A stretch of DNA of 64,000 nucleotides from the human T2T-CHM13v2.0 reference genome, Homo sapiens: NCBI GenBank assembly GCA_009914755.4, contig CP086569.2:41408001-41472000 (forward strand), given 5' to 3'. A program made the translations under genes and the position numbers. The notes beneath the pieces are model-generated. The model was not told the origin of the DNA. It was given only the letters and a program-made list of their open reading frames with translations, and did not search any database. Each line of letters begins with the position of its first letter. Position 1 is the stretch's first letter. Below are positions 8,778 to 30,527 of this stretch, piece by piece.

Positions 8778-9069
8778 TTTTTTTTTAGACAGAATCTTGT
8801 CCTGTTGCACAGGGTGGGGTACAATGGCGCCATCTTTGCTCACTGCAACTTCTGCCTCACGGGACCAAGCGATTGTCCCCCCTCAGCCTCCCAGGTAGCT
8901 GGGACTACACCACACTGGGACTACACCAGCTGCCACCATGCCTAGCTAATTTTTTGGATTTTTAGTAGTGACAGCGTTTCACTGTATTGGCCAGGATGGT
9001 CTTGATCTCTTCACCTTGTGATCCCCTTGCCTTGGCCTCCAAATTTGCTGGGATTACAGGCCTGAGCCA
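8778..9069 (-). mobile_element. Alu SINE copy (antisense), satellite unit 4.
   Basis: Same element. It has the private variant 'cacgggaccaagcgattgtcccccctc', which is shared with unit 7. Confidence 0.85.
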
Positions 9070-11190
9070 AGATCCATATTTTTTAAATGAAAAAAACTTT
9101 CAAAGGTACTCTGCTTGGTACAATAATCAAATGTATAAACTGAGGAATAAAACATAACCATGAAACCTACTTATAACTGCATATGGAAAATACAGAGGAT
9201 AATTTTTTAAATAACATATTTTGAAAGCCTTAACTAGTAATTTGAAGAGTTGGCATTTGAAAGGCCAGTATGAATATACCTTCAAAGCAGCAACACAGGT
9301 TCCCCATGAGAAAAAGCAAACACAGGGAAAATAAAAACACAAAGGTTCAATCTCTTCTGACCTTTGAAAGACACAGCACAGACAGTGGTCCTTAGGACGA
9401 AGAGCAGGAGACCCCTAATTCCGTCACCATGGCGATAGGGCATAAACATTGCTGGGTGAGGGCACAATCCACATTGTGAGGTCCAACTGCTGCCAGGAAG
9501 ACAGGAGTGCTTTTACATAGACCGAAAGGTCATTGAAGGCTCAGAGTTTTGTTTCAAGAACTGAATCCCAAGCCCACACGTTATTAGGCTGCGCTTCTTA
9601 AAACAAGTTATGAGATGGGAAAAAGGGCACCCACAAACATACGTATACATTATGTATATAATAATATACAGTGTCATATATATAATATATATAACCTATG
9701 TATAATATTGTTTTACATCCTGTATCTTATGTTATATATATTGTATAAAATATAATAATTGATAATATATAAGTTTTATATTTATACAATATGACATATA
9801 GTATATATTATAATTTATGACATATATAATATATGTTATATGTCATATATAGAAAATATTATACGGTTAATATACGTATTAAATATAAATTATACATTAT
9901 ATATATCATATATAATATATCTGTTATATATAATACCCATTATGCATAATATATATATTATGTCTATGTTATATATAGTATAAAACAACATATAATAATA
10001 TATAATTGTATATATAAAATGCGACATATAATATATATTATATTTTATAACATATGTAATATATATTATATATAATACGTTGTATGTATAATACCTATAT
10101 TAAATATATATTATATGACTATGTTATTAATTACATGTCACATGTGTTATATATTATATATTTTACATAGAATATACCGGTTACATACAATATATACTAT
10201 GTTACCTATAATGTATAATTTATTACATGTAAAATAAAGAATGCAATATATTATGTATAATTTATAATATACCATATGTGGAATGTGATATATATAACAT
10301 ATAATATATGATATATGATATACAGTATATGATATATAACATACAATATATGATTCCTAATATATATGGTATACAATATATATTTTATGATATGTATTCT
10401 ATATGTTTTATATTCTGTTATATATAACTATTTGAAATTATATATAACTGTATAATATTTTATGTAAATATGTAATATAATATATATAACTATATAATAT
10501 ATTATATATAACTATATATTATGTTATATATACTTTTATAACATAATTTACATAAAATATCATAATATAATATATATTATATTATTTCATATTACATAAT
10601 ATATATTACATATCACCCAATATAACTAACATACATAATATTATAATATAGATTATATTGTGTTATATTAAATATCATATATATCATGTATCATATATTC
10701 TATAATATATATTACACATTATATAATATGTATGTTGTCTATTATGTGATATATATAACTCTATATATAATTATATTTTTATACATATAACTAGATAAAC
10801 CTGTAATTCTACATATTTTCATTTATAATATGTAGAATTATATAATCATATATAATTATTTATATTCTATAAAAAATTTTATCATTCTATAAATTATAAT
10901 ATATAAAAATTATAATATGTACTACAAATATATATATTATATATCATATATGATATAGTACCTTTGTTATATATCATAATACATATAAATGTGTATTATG
11001 TTATCTATAATTATATAATTTCATATATAAGATGTATAATATGTATCATATATTATATATGTTATGTAATATATATAGTATATATAAGATGACACAGGAT
11101 AAATATTATATACTATGACATATAAAATATATGAGGTTATATGTTACATATAAGGCATAGCACATAACATGTAATATATATCATATATAA

Positions 11191-11482
11191 TTTTTTTTTA
11201 GACAGAATCTTGTCCTGTTGCACAGGGTGGGGTACAATGGCGCCATCTTTGCTCACTGCAACTTCTGCCTCACGGGTCCAAGCGATTGTCCTCCCTCAGC
11301 CTCCCAGGTAGCTGGGACTACACCACACTGGGACTACACCAGCTGCCACCATGCCTAGCTAATTTTTTGGATTTTTAGTAGTGACAGCCTTTCACTGCAT
11401 TGGCCAGGATGATCTTGATCTCTTCACCTTGTGATCCCCTTGCCTTGGCCTCCAAATTTGCTGGGATTACAGGCCTGAGCCA
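11191..11482 (-). mobile_element. Alu SINE copy (antisense), satellite unit 5.
   Basis: Same element. It has the variant 'ttcactgcattggccaggatgatc', as in units 1, 6 and 9. Confidence 0.85.
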
Positions 11483-28112: not shown

Positions 28113-28401
28113 TTTCTTTTTAGACAGAGTCTTGTGTTGCACAGGGTGGGGTACAATGGCGCCATCTAGGCTCACTGCAACATCTGCCTCACGGGTCCAA
28201 GCTATTGTCCTCCCTCAGCCTCCCAGGTAGCTGGGACTACACCACACTGGGACTACACCAGCTGCCACCATGCCTAGCTAATTTTTTGGATTTTTAGTAG
28301 TGACAGCGTTTCACTGTATTGGCCAGGATGGTCTTGATCTCTTCACCTTGTGATCCCCTTGCCTTGACCTCCAAATTTGCTGGGATTACAGGCCTGAGCC
28401 A
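28113..28401 (-). mobile_element. Alu SINE copy (antisense), satellite unit 12.
   Basis: Same element. Its tail is interrupted ('aatttcttttt'). It has a 3-bp deletion ('cttgtgttgcacagg') and the variants 'ccatctaggctc' and 'ccttgacctcc'. Confidence 0.85.
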
Positions 28402-30527
28402 AGATCCATATTTTTTAAATGAAAAAAAATTTCAAAGGTACTCTGCTTGGTACAATAATCAAATGTATAAACTGAGGAATAAAACATAACCATGAAACCT
28501 ACTTATAACTGCATATGGAAAATACAGAGGATAATTTTTTAAATAACATATTTTGAAAGCCTTAACTAGTAATTTGAAGAGTTGGCATTTGAAAGGCCAG
28601 TATGAATATACCTTCAAAGCAGCAACACAGGTTCCCCATGAGAAAAAGCAAACACAGGGAAAATAAAAACACAAAGGTTCAATCTCTTCTGACCTTTGAA
28701 AGACACAGCACAGACAGTGGTCCTTAGGACGAAGAGCAGGAGACCCCTAATTCCGTCACCATGGCGATAGGGCATAAACATTGCTGGGTGAGGGCACAAT
28801 CCACATTGTGAGGTCCAACTGCTGCCAGGAAGACAGGAGTGCTTTTACATAGACCGAAAGGTCATTGAAGGCTCAGAGTTTTGTTTCAAGAACTGAATCC
28901 CAAGCCCACACGTTATTAGGCTGCGCTTCCTAAATCAAGTTATGAGATGGGAAAAAGGGCACCCACAAACATACGTATACATTATGTATATAATAATATA
29001 CAGTATCATATTTATAATATATATAACCTATGTATAATATTGTTTTACATCCTGCATCTTATGTTATATATATTGTATAAAATATAATAATTGATAATAT
29101 ATGTTTTATATTTATACAATATAACATATAGTATATATTATAATTTATGACATATATAATATATGTTATATATCATATATAGAATATATTATACGGTTAA
29201 TATACGTATTAAATATAAATTATACATTATATATATTATATATAATATATCTGTTATATATAATACCCATTATGCATAATATATATATTATGTCTATGTT
29301 ATATATAGTATAGAACAACACATAATAATGTATAATTGTATATATAAAATGCGACATATAATATATATTATATTTTATGACATATATAATATATATTATA
29401 TATTATATATAATACGTTGTATGTATAATACCTATATTAAATATATATTATATGACTATGTTATTAATTACATGTCATATGTGTTATATATTATATATTT
29501 TACATAGAATATTCCAGTTACATACAATATATACTATGTTACCTACAATATATAATTGATTACATGTAAAATAAAGAATGCAATATATTATGTATAATTT
29601 ATAATATACAATATGTGGAATGTGATATATATAACATATAATATATGATATATGATATACAGTATATGATATATAACATACAATATATGATACCTAATAT
29701 ATATGGTATACAATATATATTTTATGATATGTATTCTCTATGTTTTATATTCTGTTATATATAACTATTTGAAATTATATATAACTGTATAATATTTTAT
29801 GTAAATATGTAATATAATATATATAACTATATAATATATTATATATAACTATATATTATGTTATATATACTTTTATAACTTAATTTACATAAAATATCAT
29901 AATATAATATATATTATATTGTTTCATATTACATAATATATATTACATATCACCCAATATAAGTAACATACATAATATTATAATATAGATTATATTATGT
30001 TATATTAAATATCATATATATCATATATCATATATTCTATAATATATATTACACATTATATAGTATGCATGTTGTCTATTATGTGATATATATAACTATA
30101 TATATAATTATATTATTATACATATAACTAGATAAACATGTAATTCTACAGATTTTCATTTATAATATATAGAATTATATAATCATATATAATTATTTAT
30201 ATTCTATAAAAAATTATATCATTATATAAATTATTATATATAAAAATTATAATATGTACTACAAATATATATATTATATATCATATATGATATAGTACCT
30301 TTGTTATATATCATAATACATATAAATGTGTATTATGTTATCTATAATTATATAATTTCATATATAAGATGTATAATATGTATCATATATTATATATGTT
30401 ATGTAATATATATAGTATATATAAGCTGACACAGGATAAATATTATATACTATGACATATAAAATATATGAGGTTATATGTTACATATAAGGCATAGCAC
30501 ATAACATGTAATATATATCATATATAA

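What the first reader, a model, noticed from the sequence alone, without database searches (positions are those of the whole stretch)
8778..30527. Local 3-unit higher-order repeat (~7251 bp) superimposed on the 2.42 kb period
From unit 4 to unit 12 the unit lengths cycle 2413, 2420, 2418 / 2413, 2420, 2418 / 2413, 2420, 2415.

Units 6, 9 and 12 start at 13611, 20862 and 28113, exactly 7251 bp apart each. They share at least six private variants absent from their neighbours:
- 'cctaaatcaag' (14431, 21681, 28930);
- 'atcatatttataat';
- 'tatgttttatatttatacaatataacatat';
- 'tatagaacaacacataataatgtataattg';
- 'atattccggtt';
- 'ctacaatatataattgattacatg'.

The second half of unit 3 plus the unit 4 Alu shares a private variant set with the second half of unit 6 plus the unit 7 Alu, again at a 7251 bp offset (~8200-9100 versus ~15450-16350). 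The shared variants are 'ctatactatatattac', 'taattctgcatattttc', 'catataagatatag' and 'cacgggaccaagcg'.

The pattern is patchy: other segments of the same units do not follow the 3-unit rule. This indicates a higher-order repeat eroded by gene conversion and unequal exchange rather than a clean one.
Basis: seen in the sequence. Interest (0 to 1): 0.55.

Follow-up and report, generated by a model that had tools for sequence, protein, structure and literature searches.

The report
Recent three-unit duplication in HSat1B/DYZ2 satellite
The 7,251-bp periodicity is real, but it is one young duplication of three 2.4-kb units plus a copied patch inside an ordinary human-type HSat1B/DYZ2 satellite array, not a true higher-order repeat, and this kind of local unequal exchange is already well documented for this satellite.

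Summary
The window is a single 64-kb tandem array of a 2,420-bp unit. Every descriptor I could test matches human satellite HSat1B/DYZ2.

Near-identical tracts are significantly enriched at a lag of 3 units (permutation p about 0.001).

The signal comes from few events:
- **Duplication.** There are two adjacent 7,251-bp copies, 8131-15381 and 15382-22632. They are about 99.8% identical over 5.4 kb. Unit 6 is a chimera of a unit-9-type head and a unit-3-type tail, with the junction in 15382-15421. This is the signature of an unequal exchange three units out of register.
- **Non-matching centre.** A 1.9-kb stretch (unit 5 versus unit 8) has a different, older history.
- **Patch.** A 1.66-kb piece of unit-9 sequence sits in unit 12 (28368-30024). 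The downstream flank of that patch belongs with unit 25, 13 units away.

Units 10 and 11 show no 3-unit signal. Unit 10's length of 2,413 bp is a coincidence: it comes from 2-bp and 5-bp deletions, not from the 7-bp deletion shared by units 4 and 7.

Similar tracts occur at lags 1, 2, 4, 5, 8 and 13. This is ordinary satellite turnover, not an eroded higher-order repeat (HOR).

The parts
1..64000 (+). Continuous tandem array of about 26.5 units of a 2,420-bp composite satellite (HSat1B/DYZ2 type). On the + strand each unit runs: antisense 5'-truncated Alu (about 290 bp), a GC-richer segment, 'ACATACG', then an AT-rich body of about 1.55 kb.
   Evidence: GC is 24.4%, with 1 CpG per 147 bp. The Alu part aligns to AluY positions 13-288 at 78% identity. 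There is no ORF of 120 aa or more.
8131..15381 (+). Copy 1 of the 7,251-bp (3-unit) duplication: tail of unit 3, unit 4, unit 5, and the head of unit 6.
15382..22632 (+). Copy 2 of the 7,251-bp duplication: tail of unit 6, unit 7, unit 8, and the head of unit 9.
   Evidence: It is 99.8% identical to copy 1 over 5,396 bp in two tracts.
15382..15421 (+). The 40-bp interval that contains the exchange junction inside chimeric unit 6. To the left, unit 6 equals unit 9; to the right, unit 6 equals unit 3.
   Evidence: The last unit-9-type variant is at 15381 and the first unit-3-type variant is at 15422. Ten further unit-3-type variants follow, up to 15789.
11398..13307 (+). Centre of unit 5, which does not match its partner at +7251. 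It is related to unit 1 (lag 4) and has 8 variants not seen in units 1, 3 or 8.
18649..20558 (+). Centre of unit 8, which does not match unit 5. It is related to unit 3 (lag 5) and has 7 variants not seen in units 1, 3 or 5.
   Evidence: The tract 6059-7221 matches 18143-19305 with 1 mismatch.
21120..22776 (+). The stretch of unit 9 that matches the unit-12 patch. It is the likely donor, or the surviving relative of the donor.
   Evidence: The G at alignment column 1814 is shared by units 9 and 12 but not by unit 6.
28368..30024 (+). A 1.66-kb patch of unit-6/9-type sequence inside unit 12 (offset 7,248 bp from unit 9). Both flanks lack the unit-9 variants. The downstream flank groups with unit 25 (lag 13), and the upstream flank is consensus-like.
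22673..22673 (.). Approximate switch point between two kinds of unit. Units 0-9 are canonical-like (98.5-99.4% to an external consensus). Units 10-26 are more divergent (97.4-98.7%).
236..1929 (+). Competing register: this tract is near-identical to 9908-11601 at lag 4 (offset 9,672 bp, 2 mismatches). Unit 0 is the same type as units 4 and 7.

Best explanation
The window lies inside an HSat1B/DYZ2-type satellite array (2,420-bp composite unit). The 7,251-bp periodicity records a small number of recent recombination events in which two copies of the array paired three units out of register.

**1. Unequal exchange.** Most likely this happened between sister chromatids. The exchange joined the head of an original unit (now seen intact as unit 9) to the tail of the unit three positions upstream (unit 3). 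This created chimeric unit 6 and a tandem duplication of exactly 2413 + 2420 + 2418 = 7,251 bp: 8131-15381 and 15382-22632.

**2. Replacement of the centre.** A stretch of about 1.9 kb in the middle of one copy (unit 5 or unit 8) was replaced by conversion from another array member. Alternatively, the two flanking tracts arose as separate events.

**3. Patch in unit 12.** A non-reciprocal patch of about 1.66 kb of unit-9 sequence was copied into unit 12, again three units away.

**Shown versus inferred.** The tract coordinates, the chimeric junction, the patch with foreign flanks, and the tracts at other lags are shown directly by the sequence. The molecular mechanism (sister-chromatid unequal crossover, interlocus gene conversion), the order of events and their age are inferred.

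**Rough age.** There are 11 differences in 5,396 bp. At the published Yq12 rate of 3.86e-7 per bp per generation, this gives about 2,600 generations. An ordinary nuclear substitution rate (about 1e-8 per bp per generation, a textbook figure) would give an age more than ten times greater. The estimate applies only if the window is from Yq12.
For: **Identity of the satellite.**
- The consensus is 2,420 bp, GC is 24.4%, and there is 1 CpG per 147 bp.
- The unit has an antisense 5'-truncated Alu, 22% diverged from AluY.
- 'ACATACG' sits once per unit at the junction of the GC-richer and AT-rich parts.
- Published values match: 2,420-bp consensus, 24% GC, 1 CpG per 150 bp, 5'-truncated Alu, and the same heptamer (10.1101/2022.12.01.518658); Alu about 20% diverged (10.1101/2022.12.01.518724).
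- Full-unit copies 99.4-99.6% identical to the window consensus occur as contaminant contigs in bacterial assemblies. Rhie et al. report exactly this for HSat1B.

**The duplication.**
- Two tracts at offset 7,251 have 9 mismatches in 3,278 bp and 2 in 2,118 bp.
- Unit 6 switches from unit-9 type to unit-3 type between 15381 and 15422.
- Units 4 and 7 share one 7-bp deletion.

**The patch.**
- The core of unit 12 matches unit 9 with 3 mismatches in 1,659 bp and shares 8 variants exclusive to units 6, 9 and 12.
- The tail of unit 12 plus unit 13 match unit 25 and unit 26 at lag 13.

**Direct observation of the process.** Pedigree data show de novo DYZ2 structural variants of 2,416-4,839 bp, each removing or adding whole unit(s), at about one per Y transmission. 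In the same data, 29% of Yq12 point changes look like interlocus gene conversion (PMC12240836). [quoted passage not shown]
Against: - A single clean duplication predicts uniform identity across the 7,251 bp. The central 1.9 kb (unit 5 versus unit 8) is only about 98.5% identical. Each side has 7-8 variants not seen in the compared units, so at least one further event with an unseen or diverged donor must be assumed.
- Units 3 and 8 differ more (10 differences in about 1,980 bp) than the duplicated tracts do. This does not fit a simple 'conversion after duplication from unit 3'.
- No outgroup haplotype was available to show that three units were actually gained.
- The chromosomal origin (Yq12 versus an acrocentric short arm) and the correctness of the assembly could not be tested.
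Confidence: 0.75

Rival explanations
1. A genuine 3-unit higher-order repeat once covered units 4-12 or more. It has since been eroded by mutation, gene conversion and unequal exchange.
For: - Unit types recur at lag 3: units 4 and 7, and units 6, 9 and 12.
- The length cycle repeats three times.
- The lag-3 enrichment is significant.
Against: - There are only two block copies.
- Pairs 7-10, 8-11, 10-13 and 11-14 are at background in every 220-column window.
- Unit 10's 2,413 bp comes from different indels than those of units 4 and 7.
- The matching tracts are about 8-13 times less diverged than the background and have sharp edges.
- Unit 0 is the unit-4/7 type but lies out of phase, at lag 4.
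- The tail of unit 12 belongs with unit 25 at lag 13.
Confidence: 0.08
2. No copy-number change occurred. Two or three independent gene-conversion events, each between units three apart, overwrote pre-existing units. The affected tracts would be 3.3 kb, 2.1 kb and 1.7 kb.
For: - The unmatched, older 1.9-kb centre of units 5 and 8 is explained without an unseen donor.
- The unit-12 patch shows that such conversion-like patches do occur here.
- Published data show frequent interlocus conversion in DYZ1/DYZ2.
Against: - It needs two long conversion tracts, side by side, in the same register. Together they would have to mimic exactly one duplication period, with the outer edges 8131 and 22672 lying 2 x 7,251 + 40 bp apart.
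- The divergences of the two tracts (0.27% and 0.09%) are compatible with a single age.
Confidence: 0.12
3. The pattern is an assembly artefact: a false expansion or mis-join in a hard-to-assemble satellite produced the near-duplicate 7.25-kb block and the chimeric unit.
For: - Satellite arrays of this kind are among the hardest regions to assemble.
- Sharp type switches could arise from mis-joins in the assembly graph.
Against: - The copies are not identical: there are 11 differences in the matching tracts and a fully divergent 1.9-kb centre. This is not a trivial duplicated contig.
- The same kind of mosaic occurs throughout the window at other lags.
- Such events are seen in validated pedigree assemblies.
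Confidence: 0.05

Closest known systems
HSat1B / DYZ2 satellite (human Yq12 and acrocentric short arms)
   Same: - Period and consensus length are both 2,420 bp.
- The composite unit has a 5'-truncated, roughly 20%-diverged Alu, a GC-richer HSATI part and an AT-rich body.
- GC is 24% and there is about 1 CpG per 150 bp.
- The 'ACATACG' junction motif is present.
- The unit is found as contamination in bacterial assemblies.
- Units are 97-99% identical to the consensus.
   Different: Nothing in the unit structure differs. The chromosome of origin is undetermined. The window spans a step from canonical-like units to more diverged units, as reported for array peripheries.
Small recent expansions and deletions within HSat1B sub-arrays (Rhie et al., Extended Data Fig. 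8d) and de novo whole-unit DYZ2 structural variants (Porubsky et al., PMC12240836)
   Same: These are gains or losses of whole numbers of about 2.42-kb units by out-of-register exchange, accompanied by interlocus gene conversion.
   Different: The five reported de novo events span 2,416-4,839 bp, about 1-2 units. Here the register is 3 units (7,251 bp). The event is old enough to have collected about 0.2% divergence and later overlays.
Alpha-satellite higher-order repeats
   Same: In both, a multi-unit block repeats with higher identity between blocks than between neighbouring units.
   Different: Alpha-satellite HORs are repeated many times and cover every monomer position. From general knowledge, their block-to-block identity exceeds monomer-to-monomer identity by tens of percent. 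Here there are two copies, incomplete coverage, a contrast of about 1.5% and no fixed register.
Low-frequency, small local HOR patterns in maize and Arabidopsis satellites (PMC13011684)
   Same: These are small, few-copy multi-unit patterns scattered through otherwise monomeric arrays. They are interpreted as by-products of unequal crossing over (abstract).
   Different: The organism and satellite differ, and the unit is 2.4 kb rather than about 150-180 bp.

Membership tests
HSat1B / DYZ2 satellite | Tandem period of about 2.4 kb (published consensus 2,420 bp) | tested here: met
   The best autocorrelation lag is 2420. The modal unit length and the window consensus are both 2,420 bp.
HSat1B / DYZ2 satellite | Composite unit: 5'-truncated AluY-derived part about 20% diverged, a GC-richer (HSATI) part, and a body that is more than 85% AT | tested here: met
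GC is about 50% at columns 0-300 and 500-800, and 8-19% at columns 900-2300. There are mir-1268 (Alu-derived) hits below threshold.
HSat1B / DYZ2 satellite | Composition: 24% GC and about 1 CpG per 150 bp; 'ACATACG' at the HSATI/AT-rich junction | tested here: met
   GC is 24.4% and there is 1 CpG per 147 bp. 'ACATACG' occurs 24 times on the + strand and never on the - strand, at column 859.
HSat1B / DYZ2 satellite | Sequence identity to a reference DYZ2 consensus, and location in Yq12 or an acrocentric short arm | not testable with these tools
   No human reference is available. Indirect support: contaminant contigs in bacterial assemblies are 99.4-99.6% identical over a full unit. Rhie et al. 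attribute this class of contamination to HSat1B/HSat3.
Higher-order repeat (HOR) | A multi-unit block tandemly repeated several times in a constant register | tested here: not met
   There are two block copies plus one 1.66-kb patch. Other registers (1, 2, 4, 5, 8, 13) are also present.
Higher-order repeat (HOR) | Every unit position of the block is more similar to its counterpart one block away than to its neighbours | tested here: not met
   This is true for pairs 4-7 (99.7%), 6-9 (99.3%) and 9-12 (98.9%). It is false for 5-8 (98.8%, compared with 3-8 at 99.5% and 1-5 at 99.0%), for 7-10 (96.8%) and for 8-11 (97.1%).
Higher-order repeat (HOR) | Block-specific indels that give a recurring length pattern | tested here: not met
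   Units 4 and 7 share a 7-bp deletion. Unit 10 has different 2-bp and 5-bp deletions that sum to 7. Unit 12 has an extra private 3-bp deletion.
Tandem duplication by unequal (out-of-register) exchange | Two adjacent head-to-tail copies, with a chimeric unit at the junction and non-duplicated flanks | tested here: met
   The copies are 8131-15381 and 15382-22632. The unit-6 chimera switches within 15382-15421. Identity at offset 7,251 ends at 8130/15381 on the left and at 15422/22673 on the right.
Tandem duplication by unequal (out-of-register) exchange | Uniform divergence along the duplicated segment | tested here: not met
   The 1.9-kb centre (11398-13307 versus 18649-20558) has about 1.5% divergence and different affinities, so a further event is required.
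Interlocus gene-conversion patch | A tract of donor-type sequence bounded on both sides by sequence of a different affinity | tested here: met
   In unit 12, the core 28368-30024 matches units 9 and 6. The head is consensus-like, and the tail plus unit 13 match units 25 and 26.
Interlocus gene-conversion patch | No change in copy number, and the donor left unchanged | not testable with these tools
   This needs an ancestral or sister haplotype.

The most novel reading that the evidence does not exclude
The 3-unit block may be the seed of a real, still-growing HOR in HSat1B. Once a 7.25-kb duplication exists, 14.5 kb of in-phase homology would favour further mispairing in the same register. The unit-9 to unit-12 patch would be the first sign of this. 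The window would then capture HOR nucleation in a macro-satellite, and the pattern might extend upstream of the window or recur in other arrays or haplotypes.
Probability: 0.1. Interest if true: 0.35.

Novelty: already known. Interest (0 to 1): 0.1.

Why it matters
It matters little beyond documentation. The locus is a clean, base-resolved example of how a 2.4-kb macro-satellite turns over: an unequal-exchange junction mapped to 40 bp, conversion-like patches of about 1.7-2.4 kb, and several registers overlaid within 64 kb. It could serve as a worked example, or as a marker for comparing haplotypes of this array. The processes themselves (whole-unit gains and losses, and interlocus gene conversion in DYZ2/HSat1B) have already been described from T2T assemblies and observed directly in pedigrees.

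Tried and rejected
- **Length cycle as evidence for three periods: rejected.** The indel alignment shows that unit 10's 2,413 bp is a coincidence, and 2,420 bp is simply the modal length.
- **Simple model of 'duplication, then conversion of unit 8 by unit 3': not adequate.** Units 3 and 8 differ more than the duplicated tracts do. Units 5 and 8 each carry 7-8 variants not seen in the compared units. The donor may lie outside the window.
- **One complex event for both the crossover and the unit-12 patch: rejected on geometry.** In the recombinant product, unit 12 would have paired with a unit three positions downstream, not with unit 9 (inference).
- **Are the unit-6/9/12 variants a widespread DYZ2 subfamily?** A degenerate 44-mer scan of genome contigs and metagenome contigs returned 21 external copies. 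All have the consensus state at the three diagnostic sites. The sample is too small, and too consensus-like, to exclude rare copies elsewhere.
- **Rfam.** The only hits were sub-threshold mir-1268 (Alu-derived) matches.
- **Primer or probe check.** I looked for published DYZ2 primers or probes to test in silico. None are printed in the T2T-Y text.
- **ORF scan.** Nothing of 120 aa or more was found.
- **Tandem Repeats Finder.** Its maximum period of 500 cannot see the 2.4-kb unit. It reported only a 230-bp internal sub-repeat.
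Full report
**What the window is**

The whole 64-kb window is one head-to-tail array with 26 unit starts, 76% A+T and no ORF of 120 aa or more. The strongest autocorrelation lags are 2420 and 2418, followed by 7251.

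The 25 complete units align almost without gaps into 2,422 columns, and their consensus is 2,420 bp. On the + strand each unit contains, in order:
- a segment with 40-50% GC;
- the heptamer ACATACG, present 24 times on the + strand and never on the - strand;
- an AT-rich body of about 1.55 kb with 8-19% GC.

Overall GC is 24.4%, with one CpG per 147 bp. These values match the published description of DYZ2/HSat1B point by point: about 2.4 kb, a final consensus of 2,420 bp, 24% GC, 1 CpG per 150 bp, a 5'-truncated Alu, HSATI, an AT-rich repeat, and ACATACG at the HSATI/AT-rich junction (10.1101/2022.12.01.518658). Rhie et al. describe the Alu as about 20% diverged (10.1101/2022.12.01.518724).

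A degenerate 44-mer from the unit found full-unit copies that are 99.4-99.6% identical to the window consensus. They sit in contigs of nominally bacterial assemblies (Mycobacterium sp., Senimuribacter sp., Bifidobacterium tibiigranuli) and in metagenome contigs. Rhie et al. report this kind of human contamination for HSat1B. I could not determine whether the window comes from Yq12 or from an acrocentric short arm.

**Checking the observation**

The k-mer results are as follows:
- Five of the six k-mers are exclusive to units 6, 9 and 12.
- 'atattccggtt' is missing from unit 12.
- 'ctatactatatattac' also occurs in unit 8.

Whole-unit identities are 99.7% for units 4-7, 99.3% for 6-9 and 98.9% for 9-12. 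The average among units 1-9 is 98.4%, and identity between the two halves of the window is about 97%.

A segment finder run on the alignment gave three lag-3 tracts in the region:
- 8131-11397 matches 15382-18648, with 9 mismatches in 3,278 bp.
- 13308-15421 matches 20559-22672, with 2 mismatches in 2,118 bp.
- 21120-22776 matches 28368-30024, with 3 mismatches in 1,659 bp.

These tracts are far beyond chance. Poisson probabilities range from 6e-5 to 1e-24 for background divergences of 1-2.5%. Lag 3 holds more near-identical sequence (8.6 kb) than any other lag. The totals are 4.0 kb at lag 1, 1.6 kb at lag 2, 3.7 kb at lag 4 and 1.2 kb at lag 5. Permutation gives p = 0.001, or 0.007 after correcting for the choice of lag.

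**Anatomy**

The signal resolves into a few discrete pieces.

1. *The duplicated block.* Identity at offset 7,251 starts after 8130/15381 and stops before 15422/22673. That span is two periods plus 40 bp. Unit 6 is a chimera. Up to 15381 it carries the variants of unit 9. From 15422 on it carries ten consecutive variants of unit 3. Unit 9 keeps the same head but has a consensus-type tail. This is the product expected when the head of an original unit is joined to the tail of the unit three positions upstream. It gives two copies, 8131-15381 and 15382-22632. The period is simply 2413 + 2420 + 2418.

2. *The non-matching centre.* Inside the block, 11398-13307 (unit 5) and 18649-20558 (unit 8) do not match. 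Unit 5 shares variants with unit 1 and has 8 of its own. Unit 8 shares variants with unit 3 and has 7 of its own.

3. *The patch in unit 12.* Unit 12 carries the unit-6/9 type only in its core, 28368-30024. It shares a G at alignment column 1814 with unit 9 but not with unit 6. Its head is consensus-like. Its tail, followed by unit 13, matches the tail of unit 25 and unit 26 at about 99.2%, at lag 13. The core is therefore a patch laid over an unrelated unit.

4. *No further lag-3 signal.* Units 10 and 11 resemble nothing at lag 3. Pairs 7-10, 8-11, 10-13 and 11-14 are at background in every 220-column window.

5. *The third length cycle is accidental.* Units 4 and 7 (and partial unit 0) share one 7-bp deletion. 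Unit 10 has a 2-bp deletion plus a private 5-bp deletion. Unit 12 is a unit-6/9-type unit with a private 3-bp deletion in its Alu part.

**Surroundings**

The rest of the window shows the same kind of mosaic in other registers:
- Unit 0 is 99.8-99.9% identical to units 4 and 7, at lags 4 and 7. The tract 236-1929 matches 9908-11601.
- The tract 6059-7221 matches 18143-19305 at lag 5.
- Units 18, 20 and 21 are 99.3-99.5% identical to each other.
- The tail of unit 16 plus the head of unit 17 share 12 + 18 exclusive variants with the tail of unit 24 plus the head of unit 25, at lag 8.

There is therefore no preferred register across the array.

Units 0-9 are closer to the external consensus (98.5-99.4%) than units 10-26 (97.4-98.7%). 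The switch lies inside unit 9, near position 22673. This fits the published picture of homogenised array interiors and diverged peripheries.

**Mechanism**

The best explanation is out-of-register homologous exchange within the array. It comprises three parts:
- an unequal crossover, most likely between sister chromatids, three units out of register, which made the 7,251-bp duplication;
- at least one conversion-like replacement, which accounts for the unit 5 / unit 8 centre;
- a separate 1.66-kb conversion-like patch from unit 9 into unit 12.

The tract boundaries, the chimera and the foreign flanks are shown by the sequence. The mechanism, order and age are inferred.

Both processes have been observed directly in this satellite. 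Pedigree data report de novo structural variants of 2,416-4,839 bp, each affecting whole DYZ2 unit(s), at about one per Y transmission. In the same data, 29% of Yq12 point changes look like interlocus gene conversion (PMC12240836). T2T-Y describes recent small expansions and deletions in HSat1B sub-arrays, consistent with unequal exchange.

The 11 differences in 5,396 bp imply roughly 2,600 generations at the published Yq12 rate. An ordinary nuclear substitution rate (about 1e-8 per bp per generation, a textbook figure) would give an age more than ten times greater. Either figure applies only if the locus is on the Y.

**Rivals**

- *An eroded true HOR.* This is disfavoured. The evidence against it is the two-copy limit, the sharp young tracts on an older background, the absence of residual lag-3 similarity elsewhere, the out-of-phase unit 0, the coincidental lengths, and the lag-13 affinity of the unit-12 tail.
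- *Conversion only, with no copy gain.* This remains possible. It explains the old centre without an unseen donor. However, it needs two long adjacent tracts that together mimic exactly one duplication period.
- *An assembly artefact.* This cannot be excluded without reads. It is unlikely, because the copies differ and the mosaic is pervasive.

**Verdict**

The feature is an ordinary, already documented kind of satellite turnover in HSat1B/DYZ2, so interest is low.

Noticed in passing
window around 22673 (inside unit 9): There is a step change in unit type. Units 0-9 carry the states of the external (genome-wide) consensus and are 98.5-99.4% identical to it. Units 10-26 form a more diverged local subfamily (97.4-98.7%). 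This is consistent with a transition from array interior to periphery.
   Followed up: partly
window about 39500-41870 versus about 58850-61230 (tail of unit 16 plus head of unit 17, versus tail of unit 24 plus head of unit 25): A block of about one unit length shares 12 + 18 exclusive variants at lag 8 (offset about 19,356 bp). Whole-unit identities are 98.2%, against a background of about 96.5-97%. This is an older patch or duplication in a different register.
   Followed up: partly
window about 30085-32554 versus about 61531-64000: The tail of unit 12 plus unit 13 match the tail of unit 25 plus unit 26 at about 99.2% (lag 13, offset 31,446 bp). The match runs off the end of the window. Units 11 and 24 also share 5 exclusive variants.
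   Followed up: partly
window 42616-52296 (units 18-21): This is a cluster of near-identical neighbours. Units 18, 20 and 21 are 99.3-99.5% identical, with tracts at lags 1, 2 and 3. These look like local amplifications of one or two units.
   Followed up: no
window 1-1518 (partial unit 0): Unit 0 is the same type as units 4 and 7 (99.8-99.9%, including the 7-bp deletion). Together with the unit 1-5 pair (99.0%), this gives a competing 4-unit register just upstream of the 3-unit one.
   Followed up: partly
L001 (LZSC01000004.1, Mycobacterium sp. 1100029.7), L002 (CALPCJ010000037.1, Senimuribacter sp.), L003 (NZ_QLZA01000025.1, Bifidobacterium tibiigranuli), L004 (WYCU01000038.1): Contigs in nominally bacterial genome assemblies are single units of this satellite. 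L001-L003 are 99.4-99.6% identical to the window consensus. L004 is a 796-bp fragment. They are human contamination. Two metagenome contigs (BNJT01002008.1 and BNJU01004413.1) of about 54 kb appear to be whole arrays of it.
   Followed up: partly
each unit, alignment columns about 960-1390 (for example window 12141-12578): Inside the AT-rich body there is a sub-repeat of about 230 bp, with 1.9 copies at about 75% identity. It hints at how the unit was built.
   Followed up: no
window 8882-8948 and 11295-11361, minus strand: There are sub-threshold Rfam matches to mir-1268 (33.9 bits against a gathering score of 83) in the Alu part of the scanned units. This is an Alu-derived resemblance, not a gene.
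   Followed up: no
unit 10, window about 24273 (alignment columns 994-995): Unit 10 shares the 2-bp AA deletion of units 6, 9 and 12 but none of their other variants. This is either a recurrent slippage in an (AT)n context or a very short conversion.
   Followed up: no
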